A stretch of 11,450 bases of DNA from a virus. Shown here piece by piece: positions 7,653-7,698 of the stretch (positions within the stretch are counted from its first letter, which is position 1; every line of letters begins with the position of its first letter). Location of the stretch: IMG/VR virus record IMGVR_UViG_3300045988_163663; one strand, given 5' to 3'. The notes beneath the pieces are model-generated. The model saw only the letters and a list, made by a program, of their open reading frames with translations, was not told the DNA's origin and ran no database searches. A program made the position numbers and the translations under genes.

Positions 7653-7698
7653 ACACTAAATATAGTATAAGTTCAAAAATTTATACTATATTTAGTGC
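7653..7698. promoter_or_regulatory. Two NrdR-box-like 16-bp palindromes in inverted orientation, together forming a perfect 17-bp inverted repeat (7654-7670 / 7681-7697) immediately upstream of nrdD.
   Basis: ACACTAAATATAGTAT (7653-7668) matches the NrdR-box consensus acaCwAtATaTwGtgt at 14/16 positions. The second copy sits on the opposite strand at 7683-7698 (15/16 to the first). Centres are about 30 bp apart. It overlaps a candidate promoter TTAACT (7639-7644)-N16-TATAGT (7661-7666). The nrdD SD GGAGG is at 7699-7703. Confidence 0.4.

What the first reader, a model, noticed from the sequence alone, without database searches (positions are those of the whole stretch)
7653..7698. Pair of NrdR-box-like palindromes, also a perfect 17-bp inverted repeat, directly upstream of phage nrdD
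ACACTAAATATAGTAT matches the bacterial NrdR operator consensus acaCwAtATaTwGtgt at 14/16 positions. A second copy lies 30 bp away on the other strand. Together they make the perfect inverted repeat CACTAAATATAGTATAA-N10-TTATACTATATTTAGTG, overlapping a candidate -10 element. This suggests the phage nrdD-nrdG cassette is wired to host NrdR (dNTP/ATP-sensing) repression. Alternatively it is a transcript-end hairpin for the kinase transcript, although no U-tract follows.
Basis: partly seen in the sequence, partly recalled or inferred. Interest (0 to 1): 0.6.

Follow-up and report, generated by a model that had tools for sequence, protein, structure and literature searches.

The report
NrdR operator pair before phage nrdD
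A gut-type phage carries, just before its anaerobic ribonucleotide reductase gene, what looks like a standard two-box binding site for the bacterial repressor NrdR. This suggests the phage leaves its own DNA-precursor enzyme under the host's dATP/ATP feedback control.

Summary
Box 1 (7653-7668, ACACTAAATATAGTAT) and box 2 (7683-7698, ATACTATATTTAGTGC) match the NrdR consensus at 14/16 and 13/16. They keep all four GC pairs that NrdR reads, sit 14 bp apart, and end 10 nt before the nrdD ATG. Together they form the longest inverted repeat in the window.

The NrdR-operator reading is well supported, though binding was not tested:
- The pair matches the consensus better than the E. coli nrd box pairs found by the same scan.
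- In 48 non-redundant related phage loci, such pairs are about 700-fold enriched just upstream of nrdD, with spacers of 14-17 bp.
- 36 of 38 exact-type pairs in IMG/VR abut an nrdD start.
- Similar pairs precede nrd genes in an SPbeta-like Bacillus phage and a phage-like module in a Ruminococcus isolate.
- Canonical nrdR was not detected in this phage family in limited motif-based scans, so the host protein is the likely binder.

It is not a terminator, because no U-tract follows.

One extra feature is unexplained. In this clade the two boxes stay exact reverse complements, and spacers often extend the pairing. An added RNA or DNA hairpin role, or template-switch homogenisation, cannot be excluded.

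The host is unidentified but probably Bacillota. This is a known kind of operator in a new, phage context.

The parts
7653..7668 (.). NrdR box 1, ACACTAAATATAGTAT. The key C is at 7656 and the key G at 7665.
   Evidence: Two mismatches to the consensus. C4 and G13 are the conserved GC pairs read by NrdR D15/R17 (PMC9110341). The identical 16-mer occurs upstream of the nrdI-nrdE operon of an SPbeta-like phage.
7669..7682 (.). 14-bp A/T-rich spacer, AAGTTCAAAAATTT, self-complementary at its ends.
   Evidence: Published short-spacer class is 14-17 bp (PMC12051234). Relatives have 14-17 bp, with a mode of 15. The native spacer adds hairpin stability compared with shuffled spacers, z -2.66.
7683..7698 (.). 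NrdR box 2, ATACTATATTTAGTGC. The key C is at 7686 and the key G at 7695. It abuts the Shine-Dalgarno sequence.
   Evidence: Three mismatches. It is the reverse complement of box 1 at 15/16 positions.
7654..7697 (+). Inverted repeat and potential RNA hairpin: arms 7654-7673 and 7678-7697, loop CAAA.
   Evidence: Arms are 20 nt and 95% complementary. As RNA the fold is -21.8 kcal/mol, z -10.96. No U-tract follows.
7639..7666 (+). Weak candidate sigma-70-type promoter, TTAACT-16-TATAGT, with the -10 inside box 1.
   Evidence: Scores 9/12. The -35 is not conserved in the 97-98% relatives L003 and L024. This part is uncertain.
7699..7703 (+). Shine-Dalgarno GGAGG of nrdD.
   Evidence: Read directly. 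GGAGG follows box 2 in nearly all relatives.
7709..8991 (+). nrdD exon 1: ATP-cone plus the N-terminal half of the class III RNR. In-frame TAG codons are read as Gln.
8992..9856 (+). Group-I-like intron in nrdD, carrying an HNH/NUMOD4 homing-endonuclease ORF at 9122-9628.
   Evidence: Exon junction inferred from intact homologues (...YFST|MGCRTANG). Pfam matches to NUMOD4 and HNH_3. No Rfam match.
9857..10838 (+). nrdD exon 2, with the glycyl-radical domain.
   Evidence: Pfam NRDD positions 263-562 and Gly_radical.
11179..11450 (+). nrdG (radical-SAM activase). It runs off the end of the window.
   Evidence: Pfam Fer4_12 and Radical_SAM.
7048..7617 (+). Upstream guanylate-kinase-like gene. Its stop codon lies 35 nt before box 1.
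   Evidence: Pfam Guanylate_kin, 7e-25.

Best explanation
The element is a two-box operator for the host's NrdR repressor, placed at the head of the phage nrdD-(intron)-nrdG cassette.

Proposed mechanism, from established NrdR biology:
- The boxes lie about three helical turns apart. Binding kinks the DNA and blocks RNA polymerase at or just before the nrdD ribosome-binding site.
- When phage replication drains dATP, NrdR shifts to ATP-only oligomers that do not bind DNA, and the phage reductase is expressed.

Shown here:
- the sequence match and the four key GC pairs;
- spacing, position and family-wide conservation;
- enrichment upstream of nrdD;
- no canonical nrdR detected in this phage family, within limited motif-based scans.

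Inferred:
- that a host NrdR actually binds;
- that binding represses transcription;
- the position of the promoter.

Separately, in this clade the two boxes are kept as near-exact reverse complements, so any transcript that spans both boxes folds into a 16-20 bp hairpin ending 1-2 nt before the SD. Whether that is functional or a mutational by-product is open.
For: Match to validated sites:
- 2 + 3 mismatches to the consensus. The box pairs found by the same scan upstream of the three E. coli operons reported to be NrdR-regulated (nrdAB, nrdHIEF, nrdDG) score 6-8.
- All four conserved GC pairs are present at 7656, 7665, 7686 and 7695. Inverting these pairs reduced NrdR binding 50-60-fold (PMC9110341).

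Geometry:
- The 14-bp spacer lies within the 14-17 bp class. L. monocytogenes NrdR binds 14-18 bp spacers at 1-3 nM (PMC12051234).
- The architecture matches L. monocytogenes nrdDG: a pair overlapping the RNAP site, with the ATG 13 bp after box 2. Here the ATG is 10 bp after box 2.

Conservation in related phages:
- In 48 non-redundant IMG/VR loci whose NrdD is 69-98% identical, pairs with 14-17 bp spacers and at most 8 mismatches occur in 17 loci within -110..-30 of nrdD. Only 2 occur in about 340 kb elsewhere.
- An unconstrained search (spacers 8-31 bp) still peaks at 15, 14 and 16 bp.
- The position-frequency table reproduces the consensus, with C4 in 35/40 and G13 in 34/40.
- Some relatives keep one strong box plus a degenerate box 2 merged with the SD at a 15-bp spacer. 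These cannot form a hairpin.
- 36 of 38 exact CTAAATATAGT-N17-23-ACTATATTTAG sites in 2.9 million viral contigs directly precede an NrdD start.
- Among the 96-98% relatives, substitutions fall in the flanks and the spacer but not in the 32 box positions.

Independent occurrences:
- SPbeta-like Bacillus phage: ACACTAAATATAGTAT-17-ACACAATATATAGATT upstream of nrdI-nrdE.
- Ruminococcus sp. YE282 phage-like module: a 1 + 1 mismatch pair heading a module of ORFs that ends with a guanylate-kinase-like ORF and nrdD.

Source of the repressor:
- nrdR was not found in this phage family. The AY[VIL]RFASVYR signature occurs in only 4 IMG/VR contigs, none from this family.

Likely host phylum:
- The strong GGAGG SD and the nearest cultured relatives (SPbeta-like, Enterococcus and Thomasclavelia phages) point to Bacillota hosts.
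Against: - No binding or expression data exist.
- The host is not identified, so presence of nrdR in it is assumed.
- The 14-bp spacer is at the short edge of the range. S. pneumoniae NrdR binds it about 15-fold worse than 15-16 bp spacers, and E. coli NrdR several-fold worse.
- No convincing, conserved promoter overlaps the boxes. nrdD may be co-transcribed from the strong promoter near 2753-2781, which would require a roadblock mode of repression.
- Many NrdD relatives have no box pair, including the Thomasclavelia phages and several genome-collection loci from long bacterial contigs or isolates.
- The near-perfect mirror symmetry (15/16, against 8-9/16 in the E. coli pairs), mirror covariation and spacer-extended pairing are not required by NrdR binding.
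- L005 keeps the hairpin while its box 2 carries a 1-nt insertion that should hurt NrdR binding.
Confidence: 0.8

Rival explanations
1. The selected feature is an RNA hairpin rather than, or as well as, a protein-binding site. It would be a 16-20 bp stem in the gmk-nrdD intercistronic or 5' leader RNA, ending 1-2 nt before the SD. It could act as an RNase III-type processing site or a 5' stabiliser and insulator for the nrdD message.
For: - The fold is stable: -21.8 kcal/mol, z -10.96. Stems are predicted in 11 of the 16 relatives folded (clear in 10, z about -2.7 to -7.6; weak in L006, z -1.8).
- Mirror covariation between the boxes exceeds shuffles: 29 versus 13.8 +/- 2.8 doubly changed cells, 0 of 500 shuffles.
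- Native spacers add stability compared with shuffled spacers: mean z -1.27 over 19 sequences, with different spacer sequences.
- L005 keeps a 20-bp stem with a replaced spacer although box 2 is out of register.
- The E. coli NrdR box pairs are not mirror images of each other, at 8-9/16.
Against: - Conservation is of specific NrdR-consensus bases (C4, A6, A8, T9, T11, G13, T14), not just of pairing.
- The loop, which is the spacer, stays at 14-17 nt. That rule belongs to NrdR, not to hairpins.
- Relatives with one box or non-mirrored boxes (L031, L037, L040, L081, L082) show no fold above background, z about 0.
- There is no excess of G:U over A:C mismatches, 9 versus 10.
- A simple end-in pairing test of the spacers is not significant, p about 0.11.
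- If transcription starts within or after box 1, the left arm is not in the mRNA.
- Covariation can also arise from relatedness or from quasi-palindrome template switching.
Confidence: 0.25
2. It is the operator of a phage-encoded regulator unrelated to NrdR that happens to resemble NrdR boxes.
For: - These are large phages of 100-200 kb with many unannotated genes.
- The host is unknown.
- The mirror-symmetric 46-bp site would suit any symmetric oligomer.
Against: - The same motif, spacing and nrd-linked position occur in phages with unrelated replication modules (an SPbeta-like phage and a Ruminococcus module) and in bacteria.
- The invariant positions are exactly those NrdR reads.
- Only one site occurs per contig, always at nrdD.
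Confidence: 0.05
3. It is an intrinsic terminator or transcript-end hairpin for the upstream kinase transcript.
For: A long stable stem lies 36 nt after the kinase stop codon. A look-alike sequence in two unrelated contigs (L195, L207) does form a hairpin followed by a T-rich run.
Against: - No U-tract follows. The stem is followed by GCGGAGG here and by GGAGG in relatives.
- The terminator scan finds nothing.
- The stem is almost purely A/U, with only 2 G-C pairs among its 20.
Confidence: 0.03

Closest known systems
NrdR box pair of Listeria monocytogenes nrdDG (PMC12051234)
   Same: - Two 16-bp palindromic boxes sit upstream of a Bacillota-type nrdDG operon.
- The spacer is in the short class.
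- Box 2 lies almost against the start codon: the ATG is 13 bp after box 2 there and 10 bp here.
- The boxes overlap the RNAP-binding region.
   Different: - The spacer is 16 bp there and 14 bp here.
- That site is chromosomal, with a mapped promoter and measured nanomolar NrdR binding. This one is on a phage, with an unmapped promoter and no binding data.
- Whether the Listeria boxes mirror each other was not checked.
E. coli NrdR boxes at nrdAB, nrdHIEF and nrdDG (validated sites; sequences read)
   Same: The consensus is the same, all four GC pairs are present, and spacers are 15-16 bp.
   Different: - E. coli pairs carry 6-8 mismatches, against 5 here.
- Their two boxes are only 8-9/16 mirror-identical, against 15/16 here.
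- They cannot form a long hairpin.
Box pair upstream of the nrdI-nrdE-nrdF operon of SPbeta-like Bacillus phages (found here, L174 3502-3550)
   Same: - It is a phage-borne NrdR-type pair in front of a phage RNR operon that also carries an intron.
- Box 1 is the identical 16-mer, ACACTAAATATAGTAT.
- That phage shares the YorL-type PolIII alpha at 38% identity.
   Different: - The RNR is class Ib, not class III.
- The spacer is 17 bp.
- The boxes are not mirror images.
- The pair lies about 190 nt upstream of the first ORF.
- I found no paper in the searched library that describes it.
Intercistronic processing or stabiliser hairpins of phage mRNAs, such as RNase III sites in T7 early RNA (from general knowledge, not tested)
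   Same: A stem of about 20 bp lies between two co-oriented genes, with no terminator tail.
   Different: Here the sequence matches a protein operator, the loop length is constrained, and the stem is absent in part of the family.

Membership tests
NrdR operator (NrdR box pair) | Two 16-bp palindromic boxes matching acaCwAtATaTwGtgt. | tested here: met
   Box 1 matches 14/16 and box 2 matches 13/16. The total of 5 mismatches compares with 6-8 for the three E. coli box pairs scored the same way.
NrdR operator (NrdR box pair) | Conserved G:C pairs 9 bp apart in each box (box positions 4 and 13), the bases read by D15/R17 of the Zn-ribbon. | tested here: met
   C7656, G7665, C7686 and G7695 are all present (criterion from PMC9110341). 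These positions are invariant in the 24-sequence alignment, except G13 of box 1 and C4 of box 2 in a few sequences.
NrdR operator (NrdR box pair) | Boxes about three helical turns apart: spacer usually 15-16 bp, accepted range 14-17 bp, or 24-27 bp in the long class. | tested here: met
   The spacer is 14 bp, giving 30 bp centre to centre, at the short edge of the range. Relatives have spacers of 15 bp (18 loci), 14 (9), 16 (6) and 17 (3).
NrdR operator (NrdR box pair) | Located upstream of a ribonucleotide reductase operon. | tested here: met
   Box 2 ends 10 nt before the nrdD ATG. 36 of 38 exact-type sites in IMG/VR abut an nrdD start.
NrdR operator (NrdR box pair) | Overlaps the promoter or transcription start so that binding excludes RNA polymerase. 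| tested here: inconclusive
   Only weak promoter matches of 8-9/12 overlap the boxes, and their positions vary among relatives.
NrdR operator (NrdR box pair) | Conserved in orthologous upstream regions while the flanks diverge. | tested here: met
   About 700-fold enrichment in the 80-bp zone before nrdD. There are no substitutions in the boxes among the 96-98% relatives, while the flanks and spacer vary.
NrdR operator (NrdR box pair) | A cognate NrdR protein is present in the cell and binds in a dATP/ATP-dependent way. | not testable with these tools
   The host is not identified. The closest genome-collection hit is a phage contig binned into a 'Mollicutes' MAG. nrdR was not found in this phage family.
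Rho-independent terminator | G+C-rich stem followed by a U-tract. | tested here: not met
   No terminator-like site was found. The stem is A/U-rich and is followed by GCGGAGG.
Structured RNA element (processing or stabiliser hairpin) | A stem maintained by compensatory changes across relatives, independent of primary sequence. | tested here: inconclusive
   Mirror covariation and a spacer contribution are present. However, primary sequence is also conserved, the stem is absent in part of the family, there is no G:U bias, and there is no Rfam match.

The most novel reading that the evidence does not exclude
The element is dual-coded. It is a maximally symmetric, high-affinity NrdR operator whose two boxes, and often the spacer, are kept as reverse complements. 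Under this reading the same 44-46 nt also act as an mRNA hairpin next to the SD that sets processing or stability of the nrdD message. Alternatively, as phage genomes multiply, the many copies of this strong site could titrate the scarce host NrdR and so de-repress host RNR operons as well as the phage cassette.
Probability: 0.2. Interest if true: 0.65.

Novelty: new member of a known kind. Interest (0 to 1): 0.5.

Why it matters
Phage-encoded ribonucleotide reductases are usually thought of as a way to escape host limits on dNTP supply. Here a large family of gut phages keeps a host-type NrdR operator on its nrdD. Independently, an SPbeta-like Bacillus phage and a phage-like module in a Ruminococcus genome do the same for their nrd genes.

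This implies these phages deliberately stay inside the host's dATP/ATP feedback loop, so that expression switches on when replication drains dATP.

I found no paper in the searched library that describes NrdR boxes in phage genomes.

The sites could also serve as a host-phylum marker for uncultured phages. They would be convenient natural high-affinity substrates for NrdR biochemistry.

Tried and rejected
- **Terminator reading:** rejected. There is no U-tract and the terminator scan found nothing.
- **Known RNA family:** none. Rfam at E<=0.1 gave no hit anywhere in the window, and no tRNAs were found.
- **Phage-encoded NrdR:**
  - tblastn against GenBank phages found 19 records, mostly unannotated fragments.
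  - The IMG/VR scan with an NrdR alignment used poor N-terminal patterns and found 6 partial hits.
  - The AYxRFASVYR signature scan found 4 contigs.
  - None of these belong to this family, but the scans have limited sensitivity.
- **Host identification:** not achieved. The genome-collection scan returned mainly MAG bins containing phage contigs. Several long bacterial contigs or isolates (L093, L103, L151) have no boxes near their nrdD.
- **Closest cultured phages:** the Thomasclavelia phages TR-TP1/2 have nrdD overlapping the upstream gene and no boxes.
- **Conserved TGGRCA motif about 25 nt upstream of box 1:** this is the Trp-containing C-terminus of the upstream gene, not a -35 element.
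- **Promoter placement:** weak and inconsistent.
- **Spacer self-complementarity:** a simple end-in test was not significant. An MFE-based test with shuffled spacers was significant.
- **G:U versus A:C mismatch bias:** used to try to separate an RNA-level from a DNA-level constraint, and uninformative at 9 versus 10.
- **Literature:** searches for NrdR boxes in phages found nothing relevant.

Full report
**What is in the sequence**

The window is a phage-like, roughly 30% GC stretch with all major genes on the + strand:
- a phage tail lysozyme fragment;
- an SF1 helicase;
- a YorL/DnaE-type PolIII alpha (2818-6798);
- a guanylate-kinase-like gene (7048-7617);
- nrdD, starting at ATG 7709;
- nrdG, from 11179.

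TAG is read as a sense codon. The in-frame TAGs of nrdD align with Gln in intact homologues.

The finding lies in the 91-nt gap between the kinase stop codon and the nrdD start.
- Box 1 is 7653-7668, ACACTAAATATAGTAT.
- A 14-bp spacer follows.
- Box 2 is 7683-7698, ATACTATATTTAGTGC.
- SD GGAGG lies at 7699-7703 and the ATG at 7709.

- It has perfect 17-nt arms with 10 nt between them.
- It extends to 20-nt arms with one G:T and a 4-nt loop.
- It is the longest local inverted repeat in the window.
- It far exceeds what composition predicts: 17 nt, against a maximum of 13 in 60 Markov simulations.

**Does it meet the definition of an NrdR site?**

The published definition (PMC12051234; PMC9110341) has three parts:
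- two 16-bp palindromic boxes;
- a spacer usually of 15-16 bp, with 14-17 bp forming the short class and 24-27 bp a long class;
- in each box, two highly conserved G:C pairs 9 bp apart, contacted by D15/R17 of the Zn-ribbon. Inverting them costs 50-60-fold in affinity.

The window's boxes have 2 and 3 mismatches to the consensus. All four G:C pairs are present. The spacer is 14 bp.

As a calibration I read the three E. coli nrd promoter regions and scored them the same way. Their box pairs have 6-8 mismatches, 15-16 bp spacers and all four G:C pairs. The phage site is therefore closer to the consensus than bona fide sites.

Its position also mirrors L. monocytogenes nrdDG, where the ATG lies 13 bp after box 2.

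**Comparative evidence**

A scan of IMG/VR with the NrdD N-terminal exon gave 477 relatives. I examined the best 80, at 69-98% identity.
- Nearly all have, just before a GGAGG, the arrangement xxxCTAAATATAGTxx - spacer - xxACTATATTTAGxxx or a variant of it.
- With the spacer left free between 8 and 31 bp, the best pairs cluster at 15, 14 and 16 bp. Two cases at 26 bp fall in the long class.
- The position-frequency table of 40 unique pairs reproduces acaCwAtATaTwGtgt, with C4 in 35/40 and G13 in 34/40.
- In 48 non-redundant loci, pairs with at most 8 mismatches and 14-17 bp spacers occur in 17 loci within the 80-bp zone before nrdD. Only 2 occur in the remaining 340 kb or so, roughly 700-fold enrichment.
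- An exact search for CTAAATATAGT-N17-23-ACTATATTTAG in 2.9 million viral contigs found 38 sites, one per contig. Of these, 36 directly abut an NrdD start.
- The other two are an unrelated hairpin followed by a T-rich run.

Two further observations point to a protein-binding site.
- Several sub-families keep a single strong box, such as TCACAATATATAGTGT, plus a degenerate second box fused to the SD at a 15-bp spacer. They show no RNA fold above background.
- Among the 96-98% relatives, substitutions hit the flanks and the spacer but none of the 32 box positions.

**Independent occurrences**

A short-query BLAST of the element against cultured phages led to two further cases.
- An SPbeta-like Bacillus phage carries ACACTAAATATAGTAT-17-ACACAATATATAGATT upstream of its nrdI-nrdE (intron) operon. 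Box 1 is identical to the window's.
- Staphylococcus phage SpP carries a pair just after a glutaredoxin/thioredoxin-like gene.

In the genome collection, Ruminococcus sp. YE282 carries a near-consensus pair with 1 + 1 mismatches and a 15-bp spacer. It sits at the head of a phage-like run of ORFs that ends with a guanylate-kinase-like ORF (similar to the window's kinase) followed by nrdD. By eye, the earlier ORFs look thyX-like and deoxyribosyltransferase-like, but they were not scanned against Pfam.

NrdR-type operators on phage nucleotide-metabolism genes therefore recur in Bacillota phages.

**Whose NrdR?**

Canonical nrdR is very rare in phages.
- Only 19 GenBank phage records match, mostly unannotated fragments.
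- The AY[VIL]RFASVYR signature is present in only 4 IMG/VR contigs, none from this family.

The likely binder is therefore the host protein.

The host itself was not identified.
- The closest genome-collection hit is a phage contig binned into a 'Mollicutes' MAG.
- The strong SD points to Bacillota. So do the nearest cultured relatives: Thomasclavelia phages for nrdD, and SPbeta-like and Enterococcus phages for PolIII alpha.
- NrdR is described as near-universal in bacteria (PMC12051234, PMC9110341).

**The hairpin question**

As RNA the element folds into a 20-bp stem of -21.8 kcal/mol, z -10.96. No U-tract follows, so it is not an intrinsic terminator.

Two palindromic boxes will always give some stem. 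In this clade, however, the symmetry goes further.
- Box 2 is the reverse complement of box 1 at 13-16 of 16 positions, including non-consensus positions. The E. coli pairs score 8-9/16.
- Mirror positions co-vary: GTAT/ATAC, GTAG/CTAC, GTGG/CCAC, and ATTTTGT/ACAAAAT in L026. Covariation measures exceed all 500 shuffles.
- Native spacers, though different in sequence, add stability relative to shuffled spacers, with mean z -1.27 over 19 sequences.
- The 95% relative L005 keeps a 20-bp stem with a replaced spacer, even though its box 2 has a 1-nt insertion.

Several points argue against a purely RNA explanation.
- Specific bases are conserved, not just pairing.
- The 14-17 nt 'loop' rule belongs to NrdR, not to hairpins.
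- The stem is absent in part of the family.
- There is no G:U over A:C bias, at 9 versus 10.

Three explanations remain open:
- an added RNA-level role, such as processing or stabilisation next to the SD;
- selection for a fully two-fold-symmetric site that fits the symmetric NrdR tetramer;
- neutral homogenisation of a quasi-palindrome by template switching.

These cannot be separated by sequence alone.

**Promoter**

Only weak sigma-70-type matches overlap the boxes, and their positions differ among relatives. A strong TG-extended promoter lies before the PolIII gene near 2753-2781. nrdD may therefore also be reached by read-through transcripts. In that case the hairpin would form and NrdR would act as a roadblock. 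This step of the mechanism is inferred.

**Verdict**

The terminator alternative is rejected.

The element is a new member of a known kind, in a context (phage genomes) that I could not find described in the searched literature. Its unusually perfect, partly conserved mirror symmetry remains unexplained.

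Noticed in passing
window 7709-10838 (for example TAG at 7802-7804 and 7925-7927); also 829-1956, 1957-2559 and 2561-2750: TAG is used as a sense codon. Five in-frame TAGs in nrdD align with Gln in intact homologues (DGQLYE, LMQSERR, LALQSTA, GFGQLKD, AETLQIL). Treating TAG as sense merges fragmented ORFs. Relatives carry 0-7 in-frame TAGs in nrdD, so recoded and standard-code phages share this gene family and its operator.
   Followed up: partly
window 8992-9856 (ORF 9122-9628): nrdD is split after ...YFST by a group-I-like intron: the 5' exon ends in T and the intron ends in G. 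The intron encodes an HNH/NUMOD4 (I-HmuI-like) homing endonuclease. There is no Rfam hit. The same layout occurs in Thomasclavelia phages TR-TP1/2, while most IMG/VR relatives have an uninterrupted gene.
   Followed up: partly
window about 2753-2781: A strong sigma-A-type promoter, TTGCTT-17-TATAAT with a TG extension, lies just before the PolIII alpha gene. It could drive a long PolIII-gmk-nrdD transcript.
   Followed up: no
window 2561-2750: The apparent gap before PolIII holds a 63-codon Q/N-rich ORF that looks coiled-coil by eye. It is open only if its three TAG codons are read as sense.
   Followed up: no
L174 3502-3550 (Bacillus phage SPbetaL4, OQ921344.1): An NrdR-type pair, ACACTAAATATAGTAT-17-ACACAATATATAGATT, lies upstream of the phage nrdI-nrdE (intron) operon. 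Box 1 is identical to the window's box 1.
   Followed up: partly
L173 3509-3557 (Staphylococcus phage SpP, PP468606.1): An NrdR-type pair, ACACAACATATAGTGG-17-ATACCACATATAGTGT, is itself an extended inverted repeat. It lies right after a glutaredoxin/thioredoxin-like gene and before a TATAAT and several small ORFs, not before an RNR gene.
   Followed up: no
L132 552-598 (Ruminococcus sp. YE282, NZ_FMUV01000013.1); similar in L131: A near-consensus pair, CCACAATATATAGTGT-15-ACACAATATATAGTAT, heads a phage-like run of ORFs: one that looks thyX-like, a Zn-ribbon ORF, a guanylate-kinase-like ORF, one that looks deoxyribosyltransferase-like, then nrdD. The ORF labels are by eye, not from a Pfam scan. 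The pair lies 2.4 kb upstream of nrdD, which suggests a larger NrdR-controlled operon.
   Followed up: partly
L195 1356-1395 and L207 10163-10203: The same two 11-mers occur in a longer perfect hairpin followed by a T-rich run and away from any nrdD. This is a look-alike that behaves like a terminator.
   Followed up: partly
L037 and L063, upstream of nrdD: A third box, ATACTATATTTGGACA, lies inside the end of the upstream gene, 26 bp before the main box. That is the published 'long' spacer class, giving a three-box arrangement like S. pneumoniae nrdHEF.
   Followed up: no
L106, upstream of nrdD: A tandem direct duplication of ATAATAAATATAGTGGAGGCGGTTT puts a box-like sequence plus an SD twice, 33 bp apart.
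   Followed up: no
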